Source: Patescibacteria group bacterium
Lineage (GTDB): Bacteria > Patescibacteriota > Minisyncoccia > Moranbacterales > UBA2206
NCBI GenBank assembly: GCA_022711335.1
Contig: JAKLFF010000003.1
Span: forward strand, 13,508-77,507
Reading direction: 5' to 3'
DNA: 64,000 bases
Shown piece by piece: positions 26,871 to 40,589 of the stretch. Positions within the stretch are counted from its first letter, which is position 1. Every line of letters starts with the position of its first letter. A program made the translations under genes and the position numbers. Under the pieces are notes generated by a model. That model worked only from the letters and a program-made list of their open reading frames with translations, did not search any database and had not been told where the DNA came from.

Positions 26871-26994
26871 GAAATAAGAATCTTGAATTTAGTATTTAGA
26901 ATTTTGAATCAGAATCAAGAACAAAAGAATCAAGATTTTCTATATTCAAAATTCCATATTCCTATTCTAAATTCCAAATTCACAATTCTAAATT
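26871..26994. repeat. Family B palindromic element
   Basis: Near-identical to B1. Confidence 0.55.
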
Positions 26995-27987
26995 CTACTT
27001 ACCATTAATATACTCCGCCAACTCCACCAGCCTATTGGAGTATCCCCATTCATTATCATACCACCCGACCACTTTCGCTAAATTTCCATTAACCATAGTC
27101 AAAGGCAAATCGACAATTGCGCTGTGCATATCGCCCTTAAAATCCATTGAAACCAAGCTTTCATCGCTCACTGCCAGCACGCCCTTCATTTCATTTTGCG
27201 AAAATTCTTTGAAAGCAGCGTTGATTTCTTCCGCAGTTGCCTCCTTTTTAAGCGTGCAGATAAAATCCGCGATTGAAACCACCGGAGTTGGAACGCGGAG
27301 TGAAATGCCATCCAATTTTCCTTCCAGGTGCTTTATCACTTTTCCAACGGTCTTGGCTGCACCAGTGGTTGTTGGGATAATATTCAAAGCTGCTGCCCGA
27401 GCACGTCTTAGATCTTTATGCGGTAAATCGAGCACTCGCTGATCGTTAGTATAGGAATGGGTCGTGGTCATGAAACCTTTTTCCACGCCGAATTTGTCAT
27501 CGAGCACTTTTATCATCGGTGCCAGACAATTGGTCGTGCATGAACCGTTGGAAATAATTTCTTCTCCGTCATATTCATTCTCATTAACTCCGAGAAGAAA
27601 AACCGGCGTGTCGTCTTTGGCGGGAGCACTGAGAACAACCTTCTTCGCGCCGGCTTTTATGTGCTTCCCCGCTTTTTCCTTGTCTTCAAAGACTCCGGTG
27701 CATTCCAAAACCACATCTACGCCAAGCTTCTTCCAGGGCAATTTTTCCGGATCAGGTTCAGACAGAAATTTAATCCGCGTTCCATCAATAATCAATTCGG
27801 AATTTTTATCATCGATTGCCACGTCTTTATCATATCTTCCATAAGATGAATCGTATTTCAAAAGATGCGCGGCAGTTTTGAGATCCCCAAGGTCATTTAT
27901 AGCTACTACTTCCATGTTTTCATTTGCAAAAGCGATTTTCAGCGACGGCCTCCCGATGCGCCCAAATCCATTAATAGCAATTTTCAT
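26995..27987 (-). CDS. gap: glyceraldehyde-3-phosphate dehydrogenase
   Basis: NGFGRIGR and SCTTNC motifs. Confidence 0.95.
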   Translation of the reverse strand: MKIAINGFGRIGRPSLKIAFANENMEVVAINDLGDLKTAAHLLKYDSSYGRYDKDVAIDDKNSELIIDGTRIKFLSEPDPEKLPWKKLGVDVVLECTGVFEDKEKAGKHIKAGAKKVVLSAPAKDDTPVFLLGVNENEYDGEEIISNGSCTTNCLAPMIKVLDDKFGVEKGFMTTTHSYTNDQRVLDLPHKDLRRARAAALNIIPTTTGAAKTVGKVIKHLEGKLDGISLRVPTPVVSIADFICTLKKEATAEEINAAFKEFSQNEMKGVLAVSDESLVSMDFKGDMHSAIVDLPLTMVNGNLAKVVGWYDNEWGYSNRLVELAEYINGK

Positions 27988-28069: not shown

Positions 28070-28342
28070 TTATACTGCTATATCCGTTATTTTCCAATGA
28101 TCGCCTTTAATTTTACTGATTTCAAACTTCGTATTTTCAAAAACAGTCCCTTTGGCGATGCTTTTTAGACCAAATTGAAGATTTTCAAGGCTTATATCCT
28201 CAGTATGTTCTGGATGGCCATCATGAGCTAGGCTTATACTTCCAATTTCAATACTAACACTTTTTGGCTTATTAAAGCCTTCTTCTTGAGATATTTTCTT
28301 AAGCTCGTCGATAATTTCTTTGGCTAAAAAAAAGTCATGCAT
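28070..28342 (-). CDS. HypA-like hydrogenase nickel-insertion protein lacking the C-terminal zinc finger
   Basis: MHD start and the HypA N-domain pattern, but no Cys. Track ORF extends to 28378 through Family C repeat. Confidence 0.45.
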   Translation of the reverse strand: MHDFFLAKEIIDELKKISQEEGFNKPKSVSIEIGSISLAHDGHPEHTEDISLENLQFGLKSIAKGTVFENTKFEISKIKGDHWKITDIAV

Positions 28343-28346
28343 GCCA

Positions 28347-28498
28347 TTTTTGTCTACGAGCGAAGCGAGTAGCCACAAAAATGAGCACCCCGCACCAATT
28401 CGAAGATGAATTTTAGGTTAATTATATTTTAAGCCGAAGGTGACGACGCACACAATACTCTGCGTTAAGCCTAAACCCAGCCGGAATTGGTGCCGGGG
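28347..28498 (-). repeat. Family C element
   Basis: See copy at 21127-21276. Confidence 0.7.
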
Positions 28499-28508
28499 TC
28501 AAAACTTT

Positions 28509-28883
28509 TTAATTTGAGCTCCACAATCCATGAACATTGCAATAAGCCCTGGCCCTAATATGCTTGGCTTCCAGAAAAAACTCCGCCCAAGGCTCATAGG
28601 CCAGGTTCAATCCTTTTCGATAGGTCCTGTGCTCTGTAATAACTTCGATCCACGAAATATGATGCGCGCTTTCCATAGGATGCGGTTCTAATCCCACTCT
28701 TACAATCACTCCGGTTGCGGTTTTTTCAATAACTGGCTTATGCTTTTCGACTCCTTCCTCTTCTTCTGTTTTTTCCTGCTGAAGTTCCATCGGCTGTCCG
28801 CAACAGACAAGTTCTCCCGATCCGCCATGGACCATCTCTACAATGTTTCCGCAGACATTGCACTTGTAAACTTGATTTAATTC
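28509..28883 (-). CDS. dfx: desulfoferrodoxin / superoxide reductase
   Basis: N-terminal CNVCGN..CCG desulforedoxin domain and an SOR domain. Confidence 0.75.
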   Translation of the reverse strand, partial: ELNQVYKCNVCGNIVEMVHGGSGELVCCGQPMELQQEKTEEEEGVEKHKPVIEKTATGVIVRVGLEPHPMESAHHISWIEVITEHRTYRKGLNLAYEPWAEFFLEAKHIRARAYCNVHGLWSSN

Positions 28884-29038
28884 AGTCATAAAAAATATTA
28901 AACTCGAAATTCGAATATCGAAATTCGAAACAATATATAAATCAAAATACTTAAAATTCAAAACAGTTTTGGTCATTTGAATTTAGTATTTTTAATTTGT
29001 TTCGGATTTCTGATTTCGTGCTTCGGATTTATAAATTA

Positions 29039-30298
29039 TTAGTGTACTGCGCAGCTTATGCATGGATCATAGGCCCGGATAAAAGCGCGCAGTTTTCTTT
29101 GGCGCGCCGTGTCGCTAAGCCCGATAATTTTGGGAATGTATTCAGAAATGTCATCTTCCAAATTAGACAGAAACTGGGCCGTCGGGGTTATAATGTTCAC
29201 ATTTCGAATATATCCCTTTGCATCCACGTCCACATGATAATATAGGGTTCCGCGCGGCGCTTCCACTGCCGCTACTCCAAAACCAGACTTAGTTTGATAT
29301 TCCCTGGTGATAACCTCATTAAGATTAAGATGCATAAGTTCCATCATAATCCTGGAAGATTCTTCAACGCAGTGGATAACTTCCGCCATTTGAAACCAGA
29401 TATTGTGAAAAGGATTATAATCGGGAAATCTGATTCCCAGGCTTTCTACGTATTTGAAAGATTTTTCTCTCAATCGGCTGCGATTGTTATTGATTCTGGC
29501 GATCGCCCCCACCATATAACTTTGTCCGTCATGTTCTATTCTTTTTATCACTTCCCGCTGTTTTTGAAGTTCATGAAAATTATTTTCAAACTTGTCCACC
29601 GGAATATGCAAGCCGCGGTTAGAAGAAATATCTCCGTCGTAAATAGCGTATCCTCCGCCCTTTTCAAGACAGACGTATTCCGTTTCCCGAGAAAAATCGG
29701 GAAGTTTTATCGTTTTAAAAAATTCTCCCAATTCCAGCGCCATGTCAAGAATATCTTTCGAGTTTATTATCAGTTTTTGAAGCGCGTCCCTGTCCGGAGC
29801 TTTTTTGAATCCGCCGACCTCATTGGTCAGCGGGTGCACCACTCTTCCGCCAACAACTTTCACAATTTCCATCCCATATTCCCGAATTTTGATTGCTATT
29901 TGGGCCTCCCTGGGATATTTTCCGATAAGTTTGATGTCATTATCGATATCCAAAAAATCAGCCAGCGACAAAAAGAACAGATGCAAGGCGTGGGAATGAA
30001 TTATTTGCGCATGCTCCATAAGAGTCCGAAGCTTCACAGTCTCTGGAGCAACGGTTATATTCATGGCATTTTCAAGCGCTTTCACAGCCGTAAGATTGTG
30101 GACCACCGGACAAATTCCGCAAATTCTCTGCGCAACGACAGGCATATCCTGATATTCCCGGCCCACAAGCACGCCCTCAATCAGCCGAATGCCTTCTTGC
30201 ACCTCCAATTTCGCCGATTTTACATCACCATTTACAACGCTCGCCATAAACCCGGCATGCCCTTCCATTTTCGCGATATGATTGATTTTGATATTCAT
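29039..30298 (-). CDS. hoxH: [NiFe] hydrogenase large subunit (group 3, NAD(P)-coupled type)
   Basis: N-terminal RICGICPVVH and C-terminal DPCISCAVH nickel-site motifs. Confidence 0.9.
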   Translation of the reverse strand: MNIKINHIAKMEGHAGFMASVVNGDVKSAKLEVQEGIRLIEGVLVGREYQDMPVVAQRICGICPVVHNLTAVKALENAMNITVAPETVKLRTLMEHAQIIHSHALHLFFLSLADFLDIDNDIKLIGKYPREAQIAIKIREYGMEIVKVVGGRVVHPLTNEVGGFKKAPDRDALQKLIINSKDILDMALELGEFFKTIKLPDFSRETEYVCLEKGGGYAIYDGDISSNRGLHIPVDKFENNFHELQKQREVIKRIEHDGQSYMVGAIARINNNRSRLREKSFKYVESLGIRFPDYNPFHNIWFQMAEVIHCVEESSRIMMELMHLNLNEVITREYQTKSGFGVAAVEAPRGTLYYHVDVDAKGYIRNVNIITPTAQFLSNLEDDISEYIPKIIGLSDTARQRKLRAFIRAYDPCISCAVH

Positions 30299-30320
30299 AA
30301 GCTGATTGCTTATAAGCTAA

Positions 30321-31304
30321 TTATAAATTGCATATTTGCTTTAACGCTAAAATATCTTCATTTGAAGCCTTTGGATTTTCCAGATCCTGTTCACCCATCA
30401 TATAATACATGATCGACGCTGGCTGACTCAAATGATCAAGCCCCAAAGCATGCCCCAACTCATGGACAACAACCAAGCGAAGATCGGCTGCGGCTTCAAA
30501 CTGGTAGATATTTATCGACTTCCCATCATACACGCCTTTATCAAATTCCCGCGATTCGCCAAACTTGTTTTTATATGTATTGAGATTACTGTTGTAGATC
30601 TGCGCTGTCTGATTGCTTTTTTGAGCTAAAGAATTGGCTTTGTTTATGAGTTCATTGATTTCTTTCCTCTGTTTTTCCAGTTTTCTATACGCATCATCCA
30701 GGTTCTCCTTTTCCTCCTTGAGTTTTTCATACTCATCCTCTGGCGCTCCGCCCTCCTGATTCCATTTCCTTACTTCTCTGTTGTAATCATCCAAATCATC
30801 CTTATATTTATCAACCACTTTGTTGTAATCGCTGATTTTTTTCTTTGACTGGACGCTCAATGAATCATACTCCTCCGTTGCTTCATCATGTTTGAGTTCC
30901 AGACTGTTAAGCTGATTTTCCATCTCTTTCGCTTCTTCAGTAGTTTTTTGACGGTCATCATAAACCAGATTTATTCTAAATTCGGCGCTTGAATCATATT
31001 CAAAAAGATTTTTTTTTGCCGGATCTTCCCAGACAATTTCCGCTTGAGAGATTATTTTTTGAAAATCAGCTTGAGTTATGTCAAATCTTGCATCAACTGT
31101 TCCGATTGAATATTTGATCGGCTGCGTACAAGGCTTGTCAATATATTGCCTTCTTATCTGCTTAAATTCTTCCCGAAAAGATTCCCTGTTGGTCAACATT
31201 GTTCCCCAAAAAGAAAAAAGCAGGATAACAATGAGATATTGAAAAAATTTCTTCATCCGATTGTTTGCCATTCCAGACTTTTCGCCTATCAGCAGAGCTA
31301 GCAA
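30321..31304 (-). CDS. membrane-anchored metzincin (matrixin-like HELGHALGLDH plus Met-turn) split by a ~130-aa coiled-coil insert
   Basis: HExxHxxGxxH motif and SIMYY. Confidence 0.6.
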   Translation of the reverse strand: MLALLIGEKSGMANNRMKKFFQYLIVILLFSFWGTMLTNRESFREEFKQIRRQYIDKPCTQPIKYSIGTVDARFDITQADFQKIISQAEIVWEDPAKKNLFEYDSSAEFRINLVYDDRQKTTEEAKEMENQLNSLELKHDEATEEYDSLSVQSKKKISDYNKVVDKYKDDLDDYNREVRKWNQEGGAPEDEYEKLKEEKENLDDAYRKLEKQRKEINELINKANSLAQKSNQTAQIYNSNLNTYKNKFGESREFDKGVYDGKSINIYQFEAAADLRLVVVHELGHALGLDHLSQPASIMYYMMGEQDLENPKASNEDILALKQICNL

Positions 31305-31335
31305 GCTTAGGATGGCAAAATAATTTTATATTTAT

Positions 31336-32217
31336 TTATTTCTCACGCGCTTCAATATCATCCCTAAGGCCATAAATTTCTGCTGTATTTTCAAACTGCT
31401 CGTCTGTTATCATAGTTTTCAGCATATTTTTCATAGCCGCTACGTTGCCAGTCGGACGCAGTCCCCGGCAGCCCTGGCATATCATGCGAGAAGTCGGACA
31501 AACCGCATCGCATCCGCCCAAAATCATGGGACCGAAGCAGGGTTTTTTATCGAGAAGAAGGCATCTATTTCCTTTTTTCTTGCATTCCACGCAAACCGGC
31601 TGGTCGGGAATAACTGGAATGTTTCCTTTGAGCAGTTCCGGAATATAGCGCAAAAATTCTTCGCCAGATATGGGACAGCCGGGAAAAGTGAAATCCACTT
31701 TCACGAAATTATCAATTTCTTTTATGGGAGGATTTTTTATCCCGTGGATATATTTATAAACATGCTTTATCGTACTTGCGCCTTCATGATAATTTTTTAT
31801 CTCTGGAATTCCTCCCATTGCCGCGCAATTCCCAAGAGCTATTAGGATTTTGGACCGTTTTCGAGCAGCTAGCAATAAATTAAAATTATCTTCCGTCACC
31901 GGATTTCCTTCCACTAAAACCAAATCGAGATTAACACCAGGATCGTCTTCGTCTTCTAAAAGTCTGAAATCCACCATTTCCACTTGGTTTATGAGATCCA
32001 AAAATTTTTGCCCGAGATCCAAAAGCACAAACTGGCATCCCTCGCATGAAGTCAGGCTGATAATGGCCATCTTCGGTTTTTTGGAAATCTCTCCGGCAGA
32101 TTTATTTTTTTTAACAGAATTAGAAATAACAGCGGTGGTTTTCTTTTTTGCAGCTTTTTTTTCGGCTGCCTTTTTCTTAATTATTTTTTTCTTTTTTATA
32201 ACTTTTTTCGTTGCCAT
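31336..32217 (-). CDS. hoxY: [NiFe] hydrogenase small subunit
   Basis: Fe-S cysteine motifs. The first 49 aa are Lys-rich and may not be translated (alternative ATG at 32070). Confidence 0.75.
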   Translation of the reverse strand: MATKKVIKKKKIIKKKAAEKKAAKKKTTAVISNSVKKNKSAGEISKKPKMAIISLTSCEGCQFVLLDLGQKFLDLINQVEMVDFRLLEDEDDPGVNLDLVLVEGNPVTEDNFNLLLAARKRSKILIALGNCAAMGGIPEIKNYHEGASTIKHVYKYIHGIKNPPIKEIDNFVKVDFTFPGCPISGEEFLRYIPELLKGNIPVIPDQPVCVECKKKGNRCLLLDKKPCFGPMILGGCDAVCPTSRMICQGCRGLRPTGNVAAMKNMLKTMITDEQFENTAEIYGLRDDIEAREK

Positions 32218-32282
32218 ATAATTATTTTACCATAATTTGGACAAAAAAATAAGCGAGGTTGGACAAAAGTCTTTCCTCGCTG

Positions 32283-32939
32283 CTAGAAGCACCTGCCAAT
32301 CAGATTCTGCGTCCAATTTTTGAGATCCCAGAATGATCCGTAGTCAATTTCAGAGATTCTCTGGCAAACACTGGTAAATTCCTGGCTTGATTCCTGCTCA
32401 CCAAAAAGATATTCGCAAATATCTTCGCAAGCAACTCCGACAATAACAGCGTAGTGGACGAGAACCATGTCTCCAGCTTTAAACTTTACATGGATACATG
32501 GATGGATCAGGAGATTTGAAATATCAACAGCTACATTCTTATTGACATATTTCGCCGATACATTTTCGCCAGAAACAGCGGTTAAGATAACAGGCTTCAG
32601 TATATGGGCGAATACATATCCGTCAGCAAATTTTCCTTTTTTTCCAACTGCATTAATTTGGTCAAAAACAAAGTCAATATGGACAGCTCCTCCAAAAAAC
32701 CTATAGATGATATCCGCATCGATTTTTTTTGCGCCGACACTCAGAGCGAATGCCCAAATTCCGGAATACATAGAGCTTTTTTCCGGCAAATTTTTCTGGA
32801 GTTCTAAAACATCAAAATCACGTCCTGTCATCACGCATCGGAAGAGGTACTTCAAATTTTCTTCCTTTTTATTGTTAAAAGTGCGACAACCGGAATTTAT
32901 CATAACCAATTTCGCTAGCGCTGAATTAGTTATTACCAT
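32283..32939 (-). CDS. hypothetical protein embedded in the hydrogenase locus
   Basis: 218-aa ORF, co-directional, overlaps hypC by 14 nt. Confidence 0.4.
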   Translation of the reverse strand: MVITNSALAKLVMINSGCRTFNNKKEENLKYLFRCVMTGRDFDVLELQKNLPEKSSMYSGIWAFALSVGAKKIDADIIYRFFGGAVHIDFVFDQINAVGKKGKFADGYVFAHILKPVILTAVSGENVSAKYVNKNVAVDISNLLIHPCIHVKFKAGDMVLVHYAVIVGVACEDICEYLFGEQESSQEFTSVCQRISEIDYGSFWDLKNWTQNLIGRCF

Positions 32940-33159
32940 TGTATTTTTCCTCCTTCCTTATTGCGATAATCTCATTAATAATTTTTCCGGCATCTTCTTC
33001 ATCCATTTTCTCAATAGCCACATTCTGCTGTGTTAAGCAGAAGTCGCCAATATTCAATTCTACTATGCTTTTCACAGTTTGTCTATCGCCAGCAGGATTT
33101 TCAACAATAACACCGCCTTTTTCAATTGATATAACTTTTTTGGGAATTGTGAGACACAT
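32926..33159 (-). CDS. hypC: hydrogenase maturation factor HypC
   Basis: MCLTIP N-terminus, 77 aa. Confidence 0.8.
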   Translation of the reverse strand: MCLTIPKKVISIEKGGVIVENPAGDRQTVKSIVELNIGDFCLTQQNVAIEKMDEEDAGKIINEIIAIRKEEKYNGNN

Positions 33160-33177
33160 GCCTTTGTTTTCTTTTTG

Positions 33178-34200
33178 CTAAATTATTTTCCTGTCCCTCG
33201 CCAGCCTCGCAATTTCCCGCTCTGATAGAATATAATCCAAATATTCATCTTTATTCGCCTTTTTCTCTATTTTATTAGAAATAAAAAATATAACTATACT
33301 CTCGGGATTTATTTTTTCTTTCCTGGCATAGTCAGCTTTGATGTTTTTTATCGCTTCATTTTTAGTCTCTTCTTTGGAAAGATTTATAATTTTTTCAAAA
33401 CCAAGCTCGGTCAGCAAATCGTCAAAATTCTTCTGGCTTTTCATGTTTTTAAGTTGCCTAAGGACTCCTTTTTCCATCTCCCAGTCCACCACAGCCACTG
33501 CCATTTTCTTTAGATTATCCAGATCTTTTATAATTTTTCCAAAATCATTCTGATCCGTCAGCGCCGCCGTTGGACAAACTTCGACGCATTTTCCGCAAAA
33601 ACTGCAATCCAGCGTTTTTTCATATGGCGTTCCGACAACCACATCGCCAGCACGATGATTAAATCCAAAGGCTTTATCGGGACAAATATTGATACAGCGT
33701 CGACATTCAATGCAATATTCCGTTGTGCGGAAAATGGCTGGATTTTTGTTGTCAATTACCACTCTTGATTTATTGTCTTTGAGCAAATCGCGCTCCTCGA
33801 CATCCGTAATTTCCTCTTTCCTCGGCACAAAATGGAAATTTTCAATTTTGTATTCTTCCGCCAAATTTTGCAGTTCACACATCCGGTTTTTCCGGCAGCC
33901 CGCGCATTTACCGGCATGATCCGCCCAAAGAAGTTCCAGATTGATTCTGCGAGCCTTATTTATCCTCTCGCTCTCTGTCGTTACTTCCAATTTTTCACAA
34001 ACCTGAAACGCACAAGATGGCACCAGCTTATCGGTAAGATTTATTTCTACAAGGCATAGCCGGCAAACTGTTTCTTTCGGCAATCCAGAAAACGCGCAAA
34101 GAGTGGGGATTCTAATCCCCTCTCTCCGGCAGACATCAAGGACGGTTTCTTCTTCCCGCGCTTCGTAAATTTTGTTATTTATTCTTATATTCATGCACAT
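33178..34200 (-). CDS. hoxU: hydrogenase diaphorase Fe-S subunit (2Fe-2S plus 4Fe-4S)
   Basis: NuoG-like N-terminus and ferredoxin cysteine motifs. SD GGAGGAGG lies before the ATG at 34200. Confidence 0.75.
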   Translation of the reverse strand: MCMNIRINNKIYEAREEETVLDVCRREGIRIPTLCAFSGLPKETVCRLCLVEINLTDKLVPSCAFQVCEKLEVTTESERINKARRINLELLWADHAGKCAGCRKNRMCELQNLAEEYKIENFHFVPRKEEITDVEERDLLKDNKSRVVIDNKNPAIFRTTEYCIECRRCINICPDKAFGFNHRAGDVVVGTPYEKTLDCSFCGKCVEVCPTAALTDQNDFGKIIKDLDNLKKMAVAVVDWEMEKGVLRQLKNMKSQKNFDDLLTELGFEKIINLSKEETKNEAIKNIKADYARKEKINPESIVIFFISNKIEKKANKDEYLDYILSEREIARLARDRKII

Positions 34201-34253
34201 TATCCTCCTCCCCCTTTCCAGGGGCAAAAATTAAAGGAGGCGTTTGAAAAAAA

Positions 34254-35480
34254 TTATTTTAATATCTTTAGTTTTTCTACCGCATCTCGAAACGCCGCAG
34301 CCGCGAATTTTCCAAAAGGGCAAAAAGTCGTATTTTCGAGCGTCCAAAGTATATCTTTGACGGCTTTTTTATCAGCTTCAGAAATTTCCCCGTCCTGGAG
34401 ACGCTTGGCAATTTCCCAAAGCCGAAATGTTCCTTCCCGGCAAGGAACGCATTTCCCGCAAGATTCCCGCCGGAAAAATCCAGTCCAAGACAATAATAAA
34501 TCATAAATATTGGTCGTTTTATCAACTACCAAGATCGCGCCTGAACCGATGGAGAAATCTTTATTTCCAAATTCTAATTTTGCGTCCAATTCTTTTTCCA
34601 TAATAAGCCTTCCGGATGACCCGCCAATTTGCGCGAACCAAAATTCTTTTCCCTTAGCCAGTCCTCCTCCAATTTCAAATATCAATTCACGGATTGTTAC
34701 TCCCAATGGTAATTCATAAACACCCGGTTTTTTTACCGCTCCGCCCAGAACAAATAATTTCGTCCCGGGAGAATTTTTTGATCCGATTTTTGCATATTCT
34801 TCCCCACCGTAAATTACTATCCAGGAAATATTGGAAATCGTTTCCGCGTTGTTTACAAGCGTCGGTTTTCCAAAAAGCCCTTTTTCAGTCGGATATGGCG
34901 GCCGCATCTTCGGCTCCCCCCGGCTTCCCTCAATTGAATTTATGAGCGCCGTTTCCTCTCCGCAAATGTATGCTCCGGCTCCGGAAAAAATCCCTATCTC
35001 CAGATTGTAATCTGATTTTAATATTTTTTCTCCCCAATATTTTTTTTTATACGCTTCTTCCAGCGCATTTTCTAAAATTTCTTCCTGTTTTCCATAATTA
35101 CCATTTATATAGATGAAAGCTTTTCTCGCACCAATGATCAAGGATAGAATGATGATTCCTTCAATGAGTTTATGCGGATCATTATCGACTATTGCCCGGT
35201 CTTTGTATGTTCCCGGCTCCGATTCATCTAAATTACAAATAAAATACCTTTCTTTTTCTCCGCTTCCCGCCACTGCTTCTAGCTTATCGCCCGTTGGAAA
35301 TCCGGCTCCTCCCCGACCCAAAAGACTGGAATTTTTTATCTCATCCGCAAATTTATCGGAATTTTTGTCCTTGATAAATTTATGAAGCGCTTTATAACCA
35401 CCAAAAGACTCGTAGTTTTTTATCTTTTTCAAGTCCGCTACGTCCCAATATTTAGTTATGATTTTGATATTTTTATTCAT
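34254..35480 (-). CDS. hoxF: hydrogenase diaphorase NAD/FMN-binding subunit (NuoF-like)
   Basis: GRGGAGFPTG motif and C-terminal 4Fe-4S motif. Confidence 0.9.
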   Translation of the reverse strand: MNKNIKIITKYWDVADLKKIKNYESFGGYKALHKFIKDKNSDKFADEIKNSSLLGRGGAGFPTGDKLEAVAGSGEKERYFICNLDESEPGTYKDRAIVDNDPHKLIEGIIILSLIIGARKAFIYINGNYGKQEEILENALEEAYKKKYWGEKILKSDYNLEIGIFSGAGAYICGEETALINSIEGSRGEPKMRPPYPTEKGLFGKPTLVNNAETISNISWIVIYGGEEYAKIGSKNSPGTKLFVLGGAVKKPGVYELPLGVTIRELIFEIGGGLAKGKEFWFAQIGGSSGRLIMEKELDAKLEFGNKDFSIGSGAILVVDKTTNIYDLLLSWTGFFRRESCGKCVPCREGTFRLWEIAKRLQDGEISEADKKAVKDILWTLENTTFCPFGKFAAAAFRDAVEKLKILK

Positions 35481-35590
35481 TTAATTCCAAATTCACCTAA
35501 TTGCCCAATTCACCTAATAAAATTCCTAATTCTCAAAAAATAAAAATTAGACATTTTATTAGAAATTAGGTGAATTAGAAATTAGAAATT

Positions 35591-36034
35591 TTATAACCAC
35601 TTCTCCAAAATCCCATGCACGCTGCTCTGTGTAACATTATTATAAACTTTATTATTGATAACCATAATTGGTCCTTCTCCGCACTGACCCAGGCAGCTTA
35701 TTATTTCAAGTTTAACTTTAGCATTAAATTCATCGCCAGCCTTTATTTTGAAATAATTTTCAATTTCTCTGATAACGGCAAATGAATTGTTCATAGCGCA
35801 ATTCGCCCCGGAACACACTTTTATAACCAGATTTGGCTGCTTTTTAATCTGAACCTGGTCGTAAAAACTGGCCGTTTCATACGCTTTCGAAAGAGGCACT
35901 TCAAAATAATCCGCCACTTTTTGCATATCTTTTTCGCTAATATGCCCAAAAGCGGCGCTAATTTTTTTTAGCGCCGGCAACAAGCTGATATTTTCTGGAT
36001 CAAATTCCAATAATATTTTTTCTATAGTTTTACT
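35591..36034 (-). CDS. hoxE: hydrogenase diaphorase 2Fe-2S subunit (NuoE-like)
   Basis: Thioredoxin-like 2Fe-2S cysteine motifs. Track ORF extends to 36061 into the A repeat. Confidence 0.75.
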   Translation of the reverse strand, partial: SKTIEKILLEFDPENISLLPALKKISAAFGHISEKDMQKVADYFEVPLSKAYETASFYDQVQIKKQPNLVIKVCSGANCAMNNSFAVIREIENYFKIKAGDEFNAKVKLEIISCLGQCGEGPIMVINNKVYNNVTQSSVHGILEKWL

Positions 36035-36035
36035 C

Positions 36036-36085
36036 ATAAAACATATGCTTTTTTGTTGCATGTTATATGTTTCATGTTCTATGAT
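36036..36085. repeat. Family A palindromic element (CATATAACAT/ATGTTATATG units)
   Basis: One of 8 copies. Confidence 0.6.
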
Positions 36086-36952
36086 TCAGGCTTTTCCATC
36101 GCTGCCGAAGAATTTTATTTTCTTCTTAACTGCTTCTTTGACTGCTTCGCGCGCCCCGCCCAGAAGTTTTCGGACATCGAAAGAAACGTTGCCCTGATTG
36201 CGGACTGAATTGATCAAGTCATTGATAAAAGCTATCCTGGTGGCTGTATCAACATTAAAACATGTGACGCCACGCTTGATTGCTTCTCCCACTTTTCCAT
36301 TCTCCCAATCCGATGCGCCGTGCAAAATTAAAGGCAGATTGGGACAGCTTTTATTAATCATTTCCAGTCTTTCAAAATCCGGTTTTTCCCTTTCTTTGAA
36401 AAAATCATGCGCATTTCCAATAGCCACCGCTAAAGCATCAATTCCTGTTTCTTTTGCGAAAGAAGCGGCTTGCCCAGGATCGGTCATGTATTTTTCCCAC
36501 TTCACTTCGCCCATTTCGTACTCGCCCAGATATGGAACGCTCCCGAGTTCCGCTTGCACTTCTACTCCTTTTTCATGGCAAAAAGCAACCACTTTTTTGG
36601 TTATCTCGAGGTTATCCACGTATTTTTTTCTCGATCCGTCATACATCACAGAAGCAAAGCCGATTGCCACCGCGCGTTGAATAAACTCAAAACTGTGCCC
36701 GTGATCAAGATGGATTCCGATCGGAAGTTCCGGCGCATAAAATTCCGCGTCATTCTTCACCAGATGATAAATCAGCCGTCCGCCGGCATATTCCATGGTT
36801 TTTTCCGTAATTTGAATGATTACCGGCGAACGCATCTCTTGGGCAGCTTCAACGATTGCCCTTGTCATTTCCAAATTAACGGTGTTAAAAGCTCCGACGG
36901 CATAACCGCCTTCCCGGGCTTTGGTTAGAATTTCTTTAACTGATGTTATCAT
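36086..36952 (-). CDS. fba: class II fructose-bisphosphate aldolase
   Basis: FbaA motifs. Confidence 0.9.
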   Translation of the reverse strand: MITSVKEILTKAREGGYAVGAFNTVNLEMTRAIVEAAQEMRSPVIIQITEKTMEYAGGRLIYHLVKNDAEFYAPELPIGIHLDHGHSFEFIQRAVAIGFASVMYDGSRKKYVDNLEITKKVVAFCHEKGVEVQAELGSVPYLGEYEMGEVKWEKYMTDPGQAASFAKETGIDALAVAIGNAHDFFKEREKPDFERLEMINKSCPNLPLILHGASDWENGKVGEAIKRGVTCFNVDTATRIAFINDLINSVRNQGNVSFDVRKLLGGAREAVKEAVKKKIKFFGSDGKA

Positions 36953-37056
36953 AAAAATAGAATTTTGAATTTGGAATTTGGAATTTTGAATAAGAATTAA
37001 GAATAATGAACCTGGATCATAATATTCTAAATTCTATATTATTCCCATTCTAAATT
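36953..37056. repeat. Family B palindromic element
   Basis: Similar arms to B1 and B2. Confidence 0.5.
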
Positions 37057-37824
37057 CTAATTTGAATTACTAATTATTTCAGCAATTTTTATAAACTCGT
37101 GCGGCACCAGCGATTCCCGTCCAACTAAAATCCCGTCCATTTCCGGATCATTGCACAAATTTTTGACTGTCCTTGAATTTACCGATCCGCCATAGAGGAT
37201 TGGAACCTTTTCAGCATATTTCTTCCCAAAACCCTCTACTAAAATTTTTCTAATTAAAACTTTCGCTTCCATAATTTCATGCGCAGTCGGAGTAATGTCG
37301 GTTCCCACCGCCCAAACAGGCTCGTAGGCAACAACGATATTTTCCAGTTTCGGCCGAGTCACGCCTTCGAGCGCTTTTTTCAGCTGCTTGGTAATTACGC
37401 TTAGCATCTGCTGCGTTTCCTTTTCTATCCTGGTCTCCCCGATGCATATTATCGGTTTGAGGTCGGCCTTTACGGCAGACTGGACTTTCAAATTAACCTC
37501 TTCGTTGTTTTCACAAAAATATTTTCTTCTTTCGCTGTGCCCGATTATCACATAATCGCACCCGAAATTTTTGAGCATTGCCCCAGAAATTTCTCCGGTA
37601 TAAGAGCCGGAACCTTCCCAAAACATATTCTGCGCTCCTATTTTAGTTCTTTTGCTCAAGGTTTTTTTAAAAACTTCCAGATGAATAAACGGCGGACATA
37701 AAACTATTTCGCAATCTCCCAATCTCTTCCCGCTGATTTCTTTTTTGAACAATTCAAAATACTTTTCCCGTTCGTCAGAAGACAAAAGATTCATTTTTAA
37801 ATTTCCAACAACTAGTTTACCCAT
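37057..37824 (-). CDS. tpiA: triosephosphate isomerase
   Basis: GNLKMN and GHSERR motifs. Confidence 0.9.
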   Translation of the reverse strand: MGKLVVGNLKMNLLSSDEREKYFELFKKEISGKRLGDCEIVLCPPFIHLEVFKKTLSKRTKIGAQNMFWEGSGSYTGEISGAMLKNFGCDYVIIGHSERRKYFCENNEEVNLKVQSAVKADLKPIICIGETRIEKETQQMLSVITKQLKKALEGVTRPKLENIVVAYEPVWAVGTDITPTAHEIMEAKVLIRKILVEGFGKKYAEKVPILYGGSVNSRTVKNLCNDPEMDGILVGRESLVPHEFIKIAEIISNSN

Positions 37825-38520: not shown

Positions 38521-38618
38521 CTTCATGAAACATATAACATGCAACATAAAACAATTATTTTAAGAAAAGCTCCATCTGTTGTTATATGTTATATGCCGTA
38601 TGTTGTATGTTATATGCT
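38521..38618. repeat. Family A palindromic element, abuts the dedA ATG
   Basis: Arms of 8-10-nt units. Central AACAATTATTTTAAG shared with A3. Confidence 0.65.
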
Positions 38619-39620
38619 TCTTAGATATTCCGCCGCATCTTCCGGCCGAATTGTTGAAATCTCAATCCCGGTTGACATTTCCAGTCCCGCCCAGGTGGAT
38701 GTATGCGGGATTATTTCAATATGCCAATGATAATGCGGATAGTCCCGCCCATCGCAGGGCGAAGTATGGACATAAAAATTGTAAGCGGGATCTTTGAGGC
38801 CCTTAAAAATTTTAAAAATAGCTTTCTGCAGAGCCTCACCTGCTTTCACTTTGCTCTCAACCGGCGTCCTTTCGAAATAAGGCTTGTGTTTTTTGGGAAT
38901 AACCCAGGTTTCGAAAGCCATCCTTGAAGCAAACGGACAAAAAACCAGAAATTCATCATTTTCGAAAACAATTCTTTTTCGCTGCTCTGTCTCCCAGTCT
39001 ATCATCGTGCAATAAACACATTTTCTATTTGTTCTATAATAATTTTCCGCGCCGGTAAGCTCCAGGTTTATATAGGGAGATATGACCGGAATAGCTACCA
39101 GCTGCGAATGAGGATGAGAAATTGATGCGCCAGCTTCCACGCCGTGATTATGAAAAATTTCGATAAAATTAACGCTTTTTTTGTTCATAAGGCTGATGTA
39201 GCGGTCCTGATAAGCGTCGAAAATTTCCGCCACCTGATATCCGTCCAGCTCGGCAATCTGCTTTTTATGATCGCGAGTAACAACAATCTCATGGTAGCCG
39301 ACTCCGTCCATCATAAAATAAGGACCCTCTTCAATGTGCTTCACGCGGGCGCCTCTGGAGAAAGCCGGATATTTATTGGGAATAACCCGGAGCGTCCACT
39401 CTCCCTCGGAATTTTGGTACATAAGAACATCTTTTTCCTGCCCGGTTTTTTCCGGACAGCAAAAGAAACACAGCTTGTCCGGATTCTCTTTCATTTCCTG
39501 CCTACCATGTTCGGAAAATTCTTTCGGCCTCTTAGACCTTCCGGTCGCAATTACTACCCAGTCTCCAGTCACCAAATCTTGTCGAAGTTCTGAAATTTTA
39601 TTTTTATTTGTCTCTTCCAT
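38610..39620 (-). CDS. galactose-1-phosphate uridylyltransferase-like (HIT family, HPHSQ)
   Basis: Two half-site HIT motifs. Track ORF to 39680 is translated Family C repeat. True start MEET abuts the repeat. Confidence 0.6.
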   Translation of the reverse strand: MEETNKNKISELRQDLVTGDWVVIATGRSKRPKEFSEHGRQEMKENPDKLCFFCCPEKTGQEKDVLMYQNSEGEWTLRVIPNKYPAFSRGARVKHIEEGPYFMMDGVGYHEIVVTRDHKKQIAELDGYQVAEIFDAYQDRYISLMNKKSVNFIEIFHNHGVEAGASISHPHSQLVAIPVISPYINLELTGAENYYRTNRKCVYCTMIDWETEQRKRIVFENDEFLVFCPFASRMAFETWVIPKKHKPYFERTPVESKVKAGEALQKAIFKIFKGLKDPAYNFYVHTSPCDGRDYPHYHWHIEIIPHTSTWAGLEMSTGIEISTIRPEDAAEYLRSI

Positions 39621-40541: not shown

Positions 40542-40589
40542 TTTTTTCTAAATATTAATGGTTATTTCTAAGGTTATTGTACCACAACT

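What the first reader, a model, noticed from the sequence alone, without database searches (positions are those of the whole stretch)
28070..36061. [NiFe] hydrogenase (hoxEFU-hypC-x-hoxY-x-hoxH) interrupted by non-canonical genes
The gene order on the minus strand is hoxE, hoxF, hoxU, hypC, a 218-aa unknown, hoxY, a membrane-anchored metzincin with a ~130-aa coiled-coil insert splitting its catalytic domain, hoxH, desulfoferrodoxin, a Family C element, and a HypA-like protein. The HypA-like protein keeps the MHD nickel-binding N-domain pattern but has no cysteines, so it has no zinc finger. The gaps between the hydrogenase genes are filled by Family A/B repeats. Structural hox genes are normally contiguous, so a protease and an unknown gene embedded among them is unusual. 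A zinc-free HypA is also unusual. The large subunit ends in DPCISCAVH, which is normally the final motif before the cleaved C-terminal extension. Here the ORF stops right after the H, so it appears to need no endopeptidase, and no hoxW/hycI is seen.
Basis: partly seen in the sequence, partly recalled or inferred. Interest (0 to 1): 0.55.

Follow-up and report, generated by a model that had tools for sequence, protein, structure and literature searches.

The report
Moranbacteria hydrogenase locus with stripped-down helpers
This is the nickel-iron hydrogenase locus of an ultra-small (CPR, Moranbacteria) bacterium: the enzyme is a known kind, but its helper proteins are unusual (a nickel chaperone without its zinc domain and a new protein built around a HypC-like domain), and the embedded protease is an unrelated passenger gene.

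Summary

- **Catalytic pair:** it is group-3b-like (closest solved relative: Pyrococcus sulfhydrogenase I), not a true Hox (3d) pair. It sits next to a minimal NuoE/F/G-type NADH module, inside a TPI-FBA-…-GAPDH glycolysis string. That placement is shared by about 130 Moranbacteria loci.
- **Large subunit:** it stops right after DPCISCAVH here and after DPC(I/V)(S/A)CAVH in 53 of 53 genome relatives.
- **HypA-like protein:** it is a real HypA nickel domain; the 14 best fold matches are all HypA. It is 90 aa, has no cysteine, and lacks the zinc domain. It carries a conserved His/Asp/Glu loop, forms a family of at least 211 clusters, and lies beside the large subunit in nearly all relatives.
- **218-aa unknown:** it contains an internal HypC-like domain with a near-invariant Cys + 3 His signature. 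It always follows a HypC variant that lacks His51.
- **Metzincin:** it is membrane-anchored and probably extracytoplasmic. It occurs in only a sub-clade and also outside hydrogenase loci, so it is a passenger.

Relatives fill the slot upstream of the small subunit with alternative cassettes: hypCDE plus a truncated hypF; DUF6390; or, remarkably, a HypC-HydE fusion plus HydG.

Verdict: new variant of a known kind, moderately interesting.

The parts
35591..36061 (-). NuoE/HoxE-like [2Fe-2S] thioredoxin-like subunit of the NADH module (156-aa ORF; the true start may be M9)
   Evidence: PF01257, E 1.9e-31. NCBIfam NuoE and HoxE models match but score below their equivalog cut-offs.
34254..35480 (-). 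NuoF/HoxF-like FMN- and NADH-binding subunit. It is a minimal 408-aa form without the extra Fe-S domains of bifurcating HydB.
   Evidence: PF01512, PF10531 and PF10589. The best solved match is Aquifex NuoF, aligned over nearly its whole length. The 600-aa HydB/NfnB proteins match only through their cores.
33178..34227 (-). HoxU/NuoG-N-terminal-like Fe-S subunit (true start about 34194), with a C-terminal extension of about 100 aa of unknown function
   Evidence: Fer2_4, NADH-G_4Fe-4S_3 and Fer4 domains. NCBIfam HoxU, E 5e-41, and [FeFe] group A6 N-terminal part, E 3e-52. PDB matches.
32926..33159 (-). HypC variant ('HypC-prime'): MCLTIPKKV... It keeps Cys2 and Pro6, but the VH(A)GFA motif is replaced by TQQN, so His51 is missing.
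   Evidence: PF01455, 41 bits, above the cut-off of 28.5. Two HypC types are distinguished in relatives. The roles of C2 and H51 are described in PMC12134894.
32283..32939 (-). 218-aa accessory protein. It has an N-terminal helical part and an internal HypC-like OB domain (residues about 113-181). Near-invariant residues are C18, F82, H87, H112, Y131, H162 and Q182. It overlaps the hypC stop by 14 nt.
   Evidence: - No Pfam or NCBIfam hit.
- 122 cluster representatives among 1.84 billion proteins; the full-length ones are about 190-275 aa, and a few shorter ones are fragments.
- Conservation analysis.
- hhalign against HypC: probability 86%, score 35.8, against at most 13.7 in 30 column shuffles.
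- Foldseek matches to HypC 2z1c/3vyt with probability 0.97-0.99 but E about 0.04.
- 3 of 91 family members hit PF01455.
31336..32217 (-). [NiFe] hydrogenase small subunit, 3b (delta)-like, with the cysteines for three Fe-S clusters. It has a Lys-rich N-terminal extension of about 48 aa whose translation is uncertain.
   Evidence: PF01058. NCBIfam sulfhydrogenase delta, E 1e-46. PDB 9e15_A SHI delta, E 6e-35, aligned over residues 48-253.
30321..31304 (-). Membrane-anchored metzincin (true start 31256, 311 aa). It has an N-terminal hydrophobic helix, HELGHALGLDH, a SIMYY Met-turn, invariant Cys43 and Cys309, and a conserved coiled-coil insert of about 130 aa with a Tyr heptad ladder. It is a passenger gene.
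   Evidence: PF00413, 44.6 bits, above the cut-off of 24, spanning residues 63-324. Ortholog alignment A6. Present in 17 of 53 genome loci. The family also occurs outside hydrogenase loci.
29039..30298 (-). [NiFe] hydrogenase large subunit, 3b-like, 419 aa. It has L1 RICGICPVVH and L2 DPCISCAVH followed directly by the stop codon.
   Evidence: - PF00374.
- NCBIfam HydA/ShyA are the best matches.
- PDB 9e1j/9nez SHI alpha, 221 bits. The 428-aa precursors align to residue 424, leaving a 4-aa extension.
- Motifs and an immediate stop in 53 of 53 relatives.
28509..28976 (-). Desulfoferrodoxin (superoxide reductase); true start about 28889, 126 aa
   Evidence: TIGR00320, 170 bits, above the cut-off of 146.9. 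Present at this position in about half of the relatives.
28344..28401 (-). It contains a hairpin with compensatory changes between copies.
   Evidence: Three copies in the window: 28344, 21121 and 39617 (family D12; alignment). It also lies upstream of hypA-like, hypC-prime and GAPDH genes in related loci.
28070..28378 (-). Mini-HypA (true start 28342, 90 aa). It is the nickel-binding domain of HypA with N-terminal MHD, no Zn domain and no Cys, plus an extra conserved loop LAHDGxxEHxED.
   Evidence: - PF01155, 27.0 bits, below the cut-off of 28.9.
- 211 clusters, most with a precomputed PF01155 hit.
- Alignment A3.
- AF2 model with pLDDT 80.
- The top 14 Foldseek PDB hits are all HypA, with query TM-score up to 0.80.
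26995..27987 (-). GAPDH, the conserved downstream neighbour (context)
36086..37824 (-). Fructose-bisphosphate aldolase (36086-36952) and triose-phosphate isomerase (37057-37824), the conserved upstream neighbours (context)

Best explanation
The region is the cytoplasmic [NiFe]-hydrogenase locus of a Candidatus Moranbacteria (Patescibacteria/CPR) genome. It lies between the glycolytic genes TPI-FBA and GAPDH.

**Enzyme (inferred from families and adjacency).** A group-3b-like catalytic dimer (small subunit with three Fe-S clusters, large subunit with the NiFe site) is wired to a minimal NuoE/NuoF/NuoG-N-type NADH module. Electrons would flow from NADH to FMN, through the Fe-S chain, to the small subunit and the NiFe site, giving H2. 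The enzyme would re-oxidise glycolytic NADH by evolving H2, possibly reversibly. Bifurcation is unlikely.

**Maturation (partly shown, partly inferred).**
- The large subunit is made in 'pre-processed' form, with no C-terminal extension, so it needs no endopeptidase.
- Nickel would be delivered by a 90-aa HypA that keeps only the nickel domain. Its MHD N-terminus and a family-specific His/Asp/Glu loop may together form the nickel site. In Thermococcus that role falls to a histidine (His98) near the Zn domain, recruited when HypB binds; this point is recalled from memory and was not checked with a tool.
- A HypC variant lacking His51 and the 218-aa HypC-domain protein (Cys + 3 His signature) form a translationally coupled pair. 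It probably handles or holds the iron moiety or the apo-large subunit.

**Embedded genes that are not hydrogenase parts.**
- The metzincin is a membrane-anchored, probably extracytoplasmic protease. It was inserted between the structural genes in one sub-clade.
- Desulfoferrodoxin is a superoxide reductase. It plausibly protects the O2-sensitive system.
For: **Taxonomy and synteny.** 53 genome loci and 80 metagenome loci were fetched. The named genome loci are Moranbacteria, Parcubacteria or Patescibacteria. They share hoxY-hoxH-miniHypA-GAPDH, with TPI-FBA upstream.

**3b-like dimer.**. All four Cys motifs and the immediate stop are present in 53 of 53 relatives.

**Minimal NuoF.**

**Mini-HypA.**. 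Partial T. kodakarensis and H. pylori HypA sequences show that the Zn domain is replaced by a short turn and that an 11-residue loop is inserted after strand 1.

**HypC-prime and the 218-aa protein.**
- They always occur together, often with 4-nt overlaps.
- HypC-like domain: hhalign score 35.8 against at most 13.7 in shuffles and 12.7 for the reversed alignment.
- Fold hits to HypC.
- Near-invariant C18, H87, H112 and H162 in a family with 22% mean identity. H112 aligns with HypC Cys2 and H162 with His51, the two iron-binding residues (PMC12134894).

**Metzincin as a passenger.**
- Present in 17 of 53 genome loci.
- TM anchor and invariant Cys pair.
- The family occurs with unrelated neighbours in L071, L082, L095, L101 and L121.
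- In other relatives the same gaps hold GIY-YIG, PD-(D/E)XK, 23S-IVS, EamA and pilin-like genes.

**Desulfoferrodoxin.** It passes the equivalog cut-off.
Against: - Nothing here is biochemical. Coupling of the NuoEFG-type module to a 3b-type dimer rests on adjacency and short gaps only.
- Many relatives lack that module next to the hydrogenase: 16 loci have FBA directly followed by hypC.
- No hypD, hypE, hypF or hypB was found in the window or in 18.5 kb of flanking contig. How the Fe(CN)2CO group is made in this genome is therefore unknown.
- The 218-aa model is only moderately confident (pLDDT 66), and its Foldseek E-values to HypC are weak.
- The window's mini-HypA scores just below Pfam's gathering threshold.
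- The metzincin sits between hoxY and hoxH in more than 50 loci. That stability could hide a functional link.
Confidence: 0.72

Rival explanations
1. The cluster is a decaying or non-functional hydrogenase remnant in this genome. Unrelated genes have been inserted, and the hypD/E/F maturation cassette that close relatives carry at this site has been lost.
For: - Close relatives (L002, L005, L009, L001, L011, L053) carry hypC-hypD-hypE and a truncated hypF exactly where the window has only hypC-prime and the 218-aa gene.
- No hypD/E is in the window or its flanks.
- Unrelated genes are embedded in the cluster.
Against: - All ORFs are intact.
- L1 and L2 Cys motifs are conserved in 53 of 53 relatives, including every locus of the window's type.
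- Mini-HypA has 16 invariant positions in an alignment of 39 of its 211 clusters.
- The 218-aa family keeps its length and a Cys/His signature across 122 divergent representatives.
- The hypC-prime/218 arrangement recurs in many distinct species.
Confidence: 0.08
2. The metzincin is a working part of the hydrogenase system, for example a substitute maturation protease or a regulator, which would explain its stable position between the small- and large-subunit genes.
For: - It sits between hoxY and hoxH in 17 genome loci and in roughly 50 metagenome loci.
- No canonical endopeptidase is present.
Against: - The large subunit has nothing to cleave.
- The protease has an N-terminal membrane helix and an invariant Cys pair, typical of exported proteins.
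- The same family lies next to unrelated genes in other contigs.
- About two thirds of related hydrogenase loci lack it.
- Other relatives carry nucleases and similar genes in that gap.
Confidence: 0.05
3. The 218-aa protein is unrelated to HypC. It could be a lineage-specific regulator or a structural subunit, and the similarity would reflect only the common OB fold.
For: - No Pfam or NCBIfam hit.
- Foldseek E about 0.04, with proteasome and NusA OB domains ranked alongside HypC.
- hhalign probability is only 80-86%.
- It has no N-terminal cysteine.
Against: - The profile score is far above the shuffled, reversed and unrelated-family controls.
- The alignment is in register for HypC's signature positions (Cys2→His112, Pro6→Pro116, VHxG→VLVHY).
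- PF01455 is the only Pfam family hit by more than one member.
- It always follows a hypC gene.
- A second family in the same slot (DUF6390) also ends in a HypC-like domain, with probability 96%.
Confidence: 0.2
4. The enzyme is an electron-bifurcating [NiFe] hydrogenase of the HydABCSL type, using NADH and ferredoxin together.
For: - The subunit set (NuoG-like, NuoF-like, NuoE-like, small, large) parallels Acetomicrobium HydABCSL (PDB 7t2r), which appears among the matches for four of the subunits.
- Bifurcation has been proposed for CPR 3b enzymes (PMC10811913).
Against: - The NuoF-like subunit is 408 aa and matches plain NuoF end to end. Bifurcating HydB/NfnB proteins are about 600 aa with extra Fe-S domains.
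- The NuoE-like subunit is a plain 156-aa protein.
- The catalytic subunits are closer to 3b than to 7t2r.
Confidence: 0.08

Closest known systems
Group 3b [NiFe] hydrogenase (Pyrococcus furiosus sulfhydrogenase I, Thermococcus kodakarensis Hyh; CPR 'hyd1' clade of Jaffe et al. 2020)
   Same: - The large and small subunits are most similar to SHI alpha and delta (221 and 124 bits).
- The L1 and L2 motifs match, and the small subunit has three clusters.
- Moranbacteria large subunits were already classed as 3b (HydDB, PMC5037454; PMC7304191; PMC10811913).
   Different: - No HyhB/HyhG (beta/gamma) genes are adjacent; a NuoE/F/G-type module is there instead.
- There is no 4-residue C-terminal extension, and the N-terminus is 5 residues shorter.
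- NCBIfam equivalog cut-offs are not reached (231.8 against 880).
- The accessory genes differ.
Group 3d bidirectional NAD-linked hydrogenase (HoxEFUYH with HoxW)
   Same: [quoted passage not shown]
   Different: - The catalytic subunits are not 3d-type. The solved 3d large subunit (5xf9) scores 139 bits against 221 for 3b.
- The 3d small subunits are about 180 aa (the 5xf9 chain is 189 aa; that 3d small subunits carry a single Fe-S cluster is recalled from memory); here the core is about 245 aa with cysteines for three clusters.
- There is no HoxW and no C-terminal extension.
- HoxE and HoxU equivalog cut-offs are not met.
HypA / HybF nickel metallochaperone
   Same: The nickel-domain fold matches (query TM-score 0.80 to 3a43 and 5yxy). 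The N-terminal M-H-acidic motif is kept. The gene lies next to a hydrogenase large-subunit gene.
   Different: - The whole Zn domain and its CxxC...CxxC motif are missing, and the protein has no cysteine.
- A family-specific loop (H40, D41, E45, H46, E48, D49) is added.
- It is 90 aa, against about 113-139 aa.
- A 2019 review states that all HypA proteins have both metal sites (PMC7055735).
HypC / HybG / HupF / HoxL chaperone family
   Same: - The 77-aa gene is a HypC with Cys2 and Pro6.
- The 218-aa protein has a HypC-like barrel with the VHxG-type motif.
- HupF sets a precedent for HypC paralogs with added segments (PMC12134894).
   Different: - The 77-aa variant lacks His51.
- In the 218-aa protein the HypC-like domain is internal. 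Cys2 is replaced by a conserved His, and a helical N-domain of about 110 aa contributes a conserved Cys and His.
- No described family matches it.
Extension-less [NiFe] large subunits (H2 sensors of groups 2b/2d, CooH 4c, Ech 4e, 4g)
   Same: The large subunit ends at the His of DPCxxCxxH, and no dedicated protease is needed (PMC7294309).
   Different: Those belong to other groups, and group 3b is not on that list. In those organisms the canonical Hyp machinery, with a normal HypA, is used.
Matrixin (M10) metzincins
   Same: It has HExxHxxGxxH, a Met-turn, and a Pfam score above the cut-off.
   Different: The catalytic domain is split by a conserved coiled-coil hairpin of about 130 aa. The protein has an N-terminal membrane anchor. 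Its position inside a hydrogenase operon appears incidental.

Membership tests
Group 3b [NiFe] hydrogenase | Large subunit with L1 (RxCGxCxxxH) and L2 (DPCxxCxxH) NiFe-binding motifs | tested here: met
   RICGICPVVH and DPCISCAVH are present in the window and in 53 of 53 relatives.
Group 3b [NiFe] hydrogenase | Large and small subunits closest to 3b references | tested here: met
   - PDB large subunits: SHI alpha 221 bits, against 3c 165, 3d 139 and 3a 126.
- PDB small subunits: SHI delta 124 bits, against 3c 92 and 3d 60.
- The best NCBIfam models are HydA/ShyA and ShyD/HydD, but they score far below their equivalog cut-offs.
Group 3b [NiFe] hydrogenase | Heterotetramer with HyhB (Fe-S) and HyhG (FAD/NAD(P)) subunits encoded alongside | tested here: not met
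   No such genes are in the cluster. The same-strand upstream genes are NuoE/F/G-like. Many relatives have only the small and large subunit genes.
Group 3d Hox hydrogenase | HoxE, HoxF and HoxU diaphorase genes adjacent to the hydrogenase genes | tested here: inconclusive
   The domain content fits. The HoxE (85.9 against 224) and HoxU (140.6 against 333) equivalog cut-offs are not reached. HoxF is a plain NuoF.
Group 3d Hox hydrogenase | 3d-type HoxY/HoxH and the HoxW protease | tested here: not met
   The subunits are 3b-like. There is no protease gene or motif and no C-terminal extension.
HypA | N-terminal Met-His-Glu nickel-binding motif | tested here: inconclusive
   The motif is MHD, with H2 and D3 at least 90% conserved. 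This is a conservative Glu-to-Asp change. Nickel binding was not tested.
HypA | Nickel-domain alpha/beta fold | tested here: met
   The AF2 model has pLDDT 80. The top 14 Foldseek PDB hits are all HypA, with query TM-score up to 0.80 and rmsd about 2 Å.
HypA | Zinc domain with CxxC...CxxC | tested here: not met
   None of the 39 aligned family members has a cysteine. The protein is 90 aa long. Pfam aligns only profile positions 1-70 of 112.
HypA | Pfam PF01155 gathering score | tested here: not met
   The window protein scores 27.0 against a cut-off of 28.9. Most family members carry a precomputed PF01155 hit.
HypC/HupF (77-aa gene) | N-terminal Cys2, Pro6, and Pfam PF01455 above cut-off | tested here: met
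   The sequence starts MCLTIP; PF01455 scores 41 against a cut-off of 28.5.
HypC/HupF (77-aa gene) | Conserved His51 (iron coordination together with HypD) | tested here: not met
   The VHAGFA motif is replaced by TQQNVA here and in the other variant HypCs found in relatives. The role of H51 is described in PMC12134894.
HypC/HupF (218-aa protein) | Free N-terminal cysteine on an OB barrel | tested here: not met
   The HypC-like segment is internal (residues about 113-181). The position of Cys2 is occupied by His112, conserved in 89 of 91 members.
HypC/HupF (218-aa protein) | HypC-type OB fold and sequence profile | tested here: inconclusive
   hhalign probability is 86%, with a score of 35.8 against at most 13.7 in controls. 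Foldseek gives probability 0.97-0.99 but E about 0.04. PF01455 is hit by only 3 of 91 members.
Matrixin (Peptidase M10) | HExxHxxGxxH zinc site and Met-turn | tested here: met
   HELGHALGLDH and SIMYY are conserved in 16 of 16 orthologs. PF00413 scores 44.6 against a cut-off of 24.
Desulfoferrodoxin | NCBIfam equivalog TIGR00320 | tested here: met
   170 bits against a cut-off of 146.9; both the N-terminal FeS4 domain and the ferrous-iron domain are matched.

The most novel reading that the evidence does not exclude
Moranbacteria whose hydrogenase locus carries the window's cassette (HypC without His51, the 218-aa Cys/His3 HypC-domain protein, and the Zn-free HypA) may mature a fully liganded [NiFe] site by a non-canonical route.

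- That route would use no endopeptidase and no HypB, and might not use HypD/E/F.
- The Fe(CO)(CN)2 unit might come from radical-SAM chemistry. Sister loci place a HypC-HydE fusion and HydG in exactly the same slot upstream of the small-subunit gene (L116, L092, L100).
- The variant HypC and the 218-aa protein would then be the receivers or carriers of an iron synthon made without HypD.
Probability: 0.1. Interest if true: 0.85.

Novelty: new variant of a known kind. Interest (0 to 1): 0.55.

Why it matters
**Maturation model.** [NiFe]-hydrogenase maturation is taught as a fixed six-protein (HypA-F) pathway followed by a proteolytic check. This lineage contradicts two textbook statements.
- It has a HypA without any zinc site, conserved in hundreds of sequences.
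- It has a group-3b-type large subunit that needs no cleavage.

It also adds two uncharacterised families built on a HypC-like domain with conserved Cys/His residues: the 218-aa family and DUF6390.

**What can be tested.**
- A 90-aa nickel chaperone is an attractive minimal system for studying nickel delivery.
- In sister loci the same slot holds a HypC-HydE fusion plus HydG. This raises a testable idea on the long-open question of where the CO ligand of [NiFe] sites comes from in anaerobes.

**Physiology.** The hydrogenase sits between aldolase and GAPDH. That supports H2 evolution as the NADH sink of these fermentative, host-dependent bacteria.

**Annotation.** The protease is a caution for gene-neighbourhood inference. 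Operons in CPR genomes readily carry unrelated passenger genes.

Tried and rejected
- **Word-index protein search** with the 218-aa protein alone and with a 17-sequence alignment gave only 2 and 6 hits. The exhaustive profile search was needed.
- **Profile search of mini-HypA against PDB sequences** found no HypA. Only the fold comparison did.
- **hypD/hypE search:** tblastn against the window and inspection of 8.5 kb and 10 kb of the source contig beyond the window ends found none. One RecA look-up returned only short contigs, and one look-up failed on a wrong start codon.
- **Rfam** on the whole window found only two tRNAs. Nothing matched the repeat or leader elements.
- **Promoter and terminator scan** of the cluster was no better than shuffles, so no transcription units can be claimed.
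- **Homology between the 218-aa family and DUF6390** was rejected: hhalign probability 3%.
- **Metzincin as a maturation protease** was rejected (see rivals).
- **The 218-aa gene as a degraded HypD/HypE remnant** was rejected. It has no similarity to either, and it coexists with hypCDE in L053.
- **Literature searches** for a Zn-less HypA, for HoxEFU with a 3b dimer in CPR, and for HypC-HydE fusions found no description.

Full report
**What is there.** Pfam and NCBIfam identify them as follows:
- a NuoE/HoxE-like [2Fe-2S] protein;
- a NuoF-like FMN/NADH subunit;
- a HoxU/NuoG-N-terminal-like Fe-S protein;
- a HypC;
- a 218-aa protein with no family;
- a [NiFe] small subunit;
- a Peptidase_M10 protein whose match spans residues 63-324 on a 159-position profile;
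- a [NiFe] large subunit;
- a desulfoferrodoxin that passes its equivalog cut-off;
- a HypA-like protein scoring just under the Pfam threshold (27.0 against 28.9).

The flanking genes are GAPDH on one side and fructose-bisphosphate aldolase and triose-phosphate isomerase on the other.

**Origin and conservation.**
- A genome scan with the large subunit returned 53 loci. The named ones are Candidatus Moranbacteria, Parcubacteria or Patescibacteria MAGs, at 62-78% identity.
- A metagenome scan with the metzincin returned 80 more loci.
- Mapping the window's proteins on these loci shows a constant core: small subunit, large subunit, HypA-like, GAPDH. TPI-FBA lies upstream wherever the contig reaches that far.
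- Everything else varies. The NuoEFG-type genes are adjacent in only some loci, and 16 loci have FBA directly followed by hypC. The metzincin is in 17 of 53 genome loci, desulfoferrodoxin in about half, and the 218-aa gene in 16.
- The source contig is ena:ERZ795055 NODE_122 (95,851 bp).

**The enzyme.**
- The large subunit's closest solved relatives are the alpha subunits of Pyrococcus furiosus sulfhydrogenase I and the Thermococcus kodakarensis cytosolic hydrogenase. They score 221 and 209 bits, ahead of 3c (165), the bifurcating HydL (165), 3d (139) and 3a (126).
- The small subunit likewise matches SHI delta across the cysteines of three clusters.
- The dimer is therefore group-3b-like. 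This agrees with earlier classifications of Moranbacteria enzymes (HydDB, PMC5037454; Jaffe et al. 2020, PMC7304191; PMC10811913).
- The partner genes, however, are not the HyhB/HyhG genes of 3b enzymes. They are a NuoE/F/G-type module.
- The NuoF-like subunit is a plain 408-aa NuoF, aligned over nearly its whole length to Aquifex NuoF. Bifurcating HydB/NfnB proteins match only through their cores.
- From adjacency and short gaps I infer an NADH-linked, non-bifurcating, H2-evolving or bidirectional enzyme. Its place between aldolase and GAPDH suggests it recycles glycolytic NADH. This is inference, not demonstration.

**No C-terminal extension.**
- The ORF stops right after DPCISCAVH. All 53 relatives also end DPC(I/V)(S/A)CAVH followed by a stop, and all keep RICGICP(V/I)VH.
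- The solved 3b precursors are 428 aa and align to residue 424, so they carry only four extra residues.
- Large subunits that naturally lack an extension are known in groups 2b, 2d, 4c, 4e and 4g (PMC7294309). This case extends that list to a 3b-like clade, which is a small step.
- No HycI/HoxW-type motif, HypB motif or canonical MHE...CxxC...CxxC HypA occurs in 1.29 Mb of the window and fetched loci.

**The Zn-free HypA.**
- The real start is the MHD methionine (28342), giving 90 aa.
- A database search found 211 clusters, nearly all about 90 aa, most with a precomputed PF01155 hit. Some pipelines annotate them, ironically, as 'Zn finger protein HypA'.
- An alignment of 39 members has no cysteine. 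H2 and D3 are near-invariant. Sixteen positions are invariant, including H40, D41, E45, H46, E48 and D49 in a loop LAHDGxxEHxED.
- The AlphaFold model (pLDDT 80; the loop has low confidence) has the order helix, strand, helix, two strands.
- Its 14 best PDB matches are all HypA structures, with query TM-score up to 0.80. They include HypA bound to the immature 3b large subunit HyhL.
- Comparison with the T. kodakarensis and H. pylori sequences printed shows two differences. The zinc domain is replaced by a short turn, and the His/acidic loop is an insertion after the first strand.
- Reviews state that HypA has both a nickel and a zinc domain, and one says this of 'all HypA proteins' (PMC12134894; PMC7055735). 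I found no description of a natural Zn-less HypA.
- A plausible mechanism, which is inference: the inserted loop supplies the extra ligand(s). In Thermococcus those ligands come from the region near the zinc domain when HypB binds.
- The large subunit also starts five residues later than its archaeal relatives. In those enzymes the N-terminal tail, displaced by the C-terminal extension, acts as the arm that docks HypA (PMC7294309). Both partners of the nickel step are therefore trimmed here.

**The 218-aa protein.**
- It has no library hit, but it is a real family. There are 16 orthologs in the genome loci.
- 122 representatives turn up among 1.84 billion proteins; the full-length ones are about 190-275 aa, and a few shorter ones are fragments.
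- Mean identity is 22%, yet C18, F82, H87, H112, Y131, H162 and Q182 are at least 94% conserved.
- Profile-profile comparison aligns residues about 113-181 with HypC residues 3-63. Probability is 80% with 17 sequences and 86% with 91.
- The hhalign score of 35.8 compares with 12.7 for the reversed HypC alignment, at most 13.7 for 30 column shuffles, and 16-22 for unrelated families.
- In that register His112 takes the place of HypC Cys2, Pro116 that of Pro6, and VLVHY (His162) that of the VHxGFA motif with His51.
- Cys2 and His51 are the residues proposed to hold the iron on HypC-HypD (PMC12134894).
- The AF2 model is moderate (pLDDT 66, better for residues 80-200). Foldseek places HypC structures among the top hits with high probability but weak E-values.
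- PF01455 is the only Pfam family hit by more than one member (3 of 91).

**Its HypC partner.**
- The 218-aa gene always follows a particular HypC variant (MCLTIPKKV..., with TQQN instead of VHAGFA, so no His51). The two genes often overlap by 4 nt (14 nt in the window).
- Canonical HypC (MCLAIPGKI...VHAGFAIEK) is instead followed by hypD and hypE.
- I read the pair as a specialised chaperone couple for the iron moiety or the apo-large subunit. What it actually does is unknown.

**Alternative cassettes in one slot.** The stretch between FBA or hoxU and the small-subunit gene holds one of four sets in different Moranbacteria.
- **Set A:** canonical hypC-hypD-hypE plus, on the other strand, a HypF reduced to its Kae1-like domain (PF17788 and PF22521).
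- **Set B:** the window's pair.
- **Set C:** the variant hypC, an EamA transporter and a DUF6390 protein. The DUF6390 C-terminus is also HypC-like: PF01455 E 8e-6 and hhalign probability 96%.
- **Set D:** in three metagenome loci, a 425-aa fusion of a HypC domain to HydE, followed by HydG, directly upstream of the small subunit. HydE scores 295 bits against a cut-off of 254.6, and HydG 564 bits against a cut-off of 312.

Further points on the cassettes:
- Sets A and B are interleaved on the large-subunit tree, and L053 has set A plus the 218-aa gene.
- I found no paper describing [FeFe]-type radical-SAM maturases fused to a [NiFe] chaperone.
- No hypD/E/F/B lies in the window or in 18.5 kb of flanking contig. 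I could not examine the rest of the genome. Whether this organism makes Fe(CN)2CO canonically therefore stays open. That gap is the basis of the 'novel case'.

**The metzincin.**
- Orthologs show the true start MKKFF followed by a hydrophobic helix of about 20 residues.
- They keep HExGHxxGxxH, a SIMYY Met-turn and two invariant cysteines (C43, C309).
- They also keep a conserved insert of about 130 residues with tyrosines spaced every seven residues (Y130, 137, 144, 151, 158).
- An anchored protease with a conserved Cys pair is most simply an exported enzyme, and the large subunit offers nothing to cleave.
- The family lies between the small- and large-subunit genes in many loci. It also lies next to unrelated genes (release-factor methyltransferase, ribonucleotide reductase, sigma factor) in L071, L082, L095, L101, L121 and others.
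- Relatives without it carry other genes in the same or neighbouring gaps: a GIY-YIG nuclease, a PD-(D/E)XK nuclease, 23S-rRNA-IVS four-helix proteins, pilin-like proteins and an IS200-like transposase. In L002 the whole hypCDE cassette sits between the two structural genes.
- I conclude that the locus tolerates insertions and that the metzincin is an old, stable passenger in one sub-clade.

**Repeats.**
- Heptamer-periodic AT-rich repeats and a 58-nt element occur in the outer gaps of the cluster and elsewhere in the window.
- The 58-nt element ends just upstream of the mini-HypA start codon. It also precedes two other genes in the window, with compensatory changes in its hairpin.
- It is found upstream of hypA-like, hypC and GAPDH genes in relatives. 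Rfam has nothing for it.

**Verdict.** The enzyme class is known. The accessory set is a new variant: a Zn-free HypA, the His51-less HypC with a HypC-domain Cys/His3 protein, and no protease. The protease is a passenger. The most interesting lead, HydE/HydG inside sister [NiFe] loci, lies outside the window.

Noticed in passing
L116:332-1609 and 1638-3071; also L092:5-736 and 1543-2919; L100:10-819: In three related metagenome loci the slot directly upstream of the [NiFe] small-subunit gene holds a fusion of a HypC domain to HydE, followed by HydG. HydE scores 295 bits on TIGR03956 (cut-off 254.6) and HydG scores 564 bits on TIGR03955 (cut-off 312). These are the radical-SAM maturases of [FeFe] hydrogenases, here inside a [NiFe] operon. 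No paper describing this was found.
   Followed up: partly
L018:5464-6219, L075:1311-2066, L085:2479-3210, L098:998-1723, L099:1949-2674: Another cassette in the same slot consists of the variant HypC, an EamA transporter and a DUF6390 (PF19927) protein. The C-terminal ~85 residues of DUF6390 are HypC-like (hhalign probability 96%), with an internal Cys and His at the Cys2 and His51 positions. This may give the DUF a functional context.
   Followed up: partly
L016:5422-6579 (-), and the equivalent gene in L001, L005, L010, L011, L027, L046, L066: Relatives with hypC-hypD-hypE carry, on the opposite strand, a HypF of about 370-470 aa. In the one scanned against Pfam (L016) only the Kae1-like domains were found (PF17788, PF22521). 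No acylphosphatase or YrdC domain was hit, and no HypF zinc-finger motif occurs in any fetched locus.
   Followed up: partly
window 28344-28401, 21121-21178, 39617-39674: A 58-nt conserved element (GAATTGGTGCGGGGTGCTCA, then a hairpin, then ACAAAAATG) ends at or just before the start codons of three unrelated genes. Its copies differ by compensatory changes in the stem. It also precedes hypA-like, hypC and GAPDH genes in L012, L031, L055, L060 and L116. Its antisense strand reads like a tRNA 3' end (...CCCCGCACCA). Rfam has no match.
   Followed up: partly
window 36050-36083, 38522-38609, 40589-40705, 43090-43163, 60226-60303, 63366-63463; also 22535-22566, 26879-26910, 36961-36992: Families of intergenic repeats with a 7-nt period (ATGTTAT/ATGTTTC units and GAATTTT/GAATTTG units) lie upstream of many genes, often as inverted pairs.
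   Followed up: no
window 3151-3214 and 11877-11940: A 64-nt palindromic sequence, 91% identical between its two copies, lies inside two different long ORFs: the DNA polymerase III alpha ORF and the miaA-like ORF. It looks like a small mobile insertion within coding sequence.
   Followed up: no
window 32071-32217 (N-terminus of the small subunit ORF): The small-subunit ORF begins with about 48 Lys/Ala/Thr-rich residues before the conserved MAIISLTSCEGCQ. Relatives have similar tails of 9-60 residues. It is unclear whether this tail is translated or whether translation starts at the internal Met.
   Followed up: no
window 30321-31256 (metzincin), residues 130-158 of the 311-aa protein: The coiled-coil insert has near-invariant tyrosines every seven residues (Y130, 137, 144, 151, 158), further conserved Asn and Leu positions, and an invariant Cys43/Cys309 pair. 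This is an unusual architecture for an M10 protease.
   Followed up: partly
L002:3816-9257; L041:9286-16163; L066:4973-8263: The locus shows extreme plasticity. In L002 the hypCDE cassette and the truncated hypF lie between the small- and large-subunit genes. In L041 about 7 kb of secreted-protein genes and an IS200-like gene separate the large subunit from mini-HypA. In L066 two 530-550-aa secreted proteins follow the metzincin.
   Followed up: partly
L043:8001-8066 and 8168-9415: The first 22 codons of the large-subunit gene appear twice, about 100 nt apart. This could be a duplication or an assembly artefact.
   Followed up: no
window 33178-33480 (C-terminal ~100 aa of the HoxU-like protein): The HoxU-like subunit has a C-terminal extension of about 100 residues beyond the HoxU/NuoG Fe-S domains. 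The extension is conserved in relatives and has no family match. It may be the docking piece for the 3b-type small subunit.
   Followed up: no
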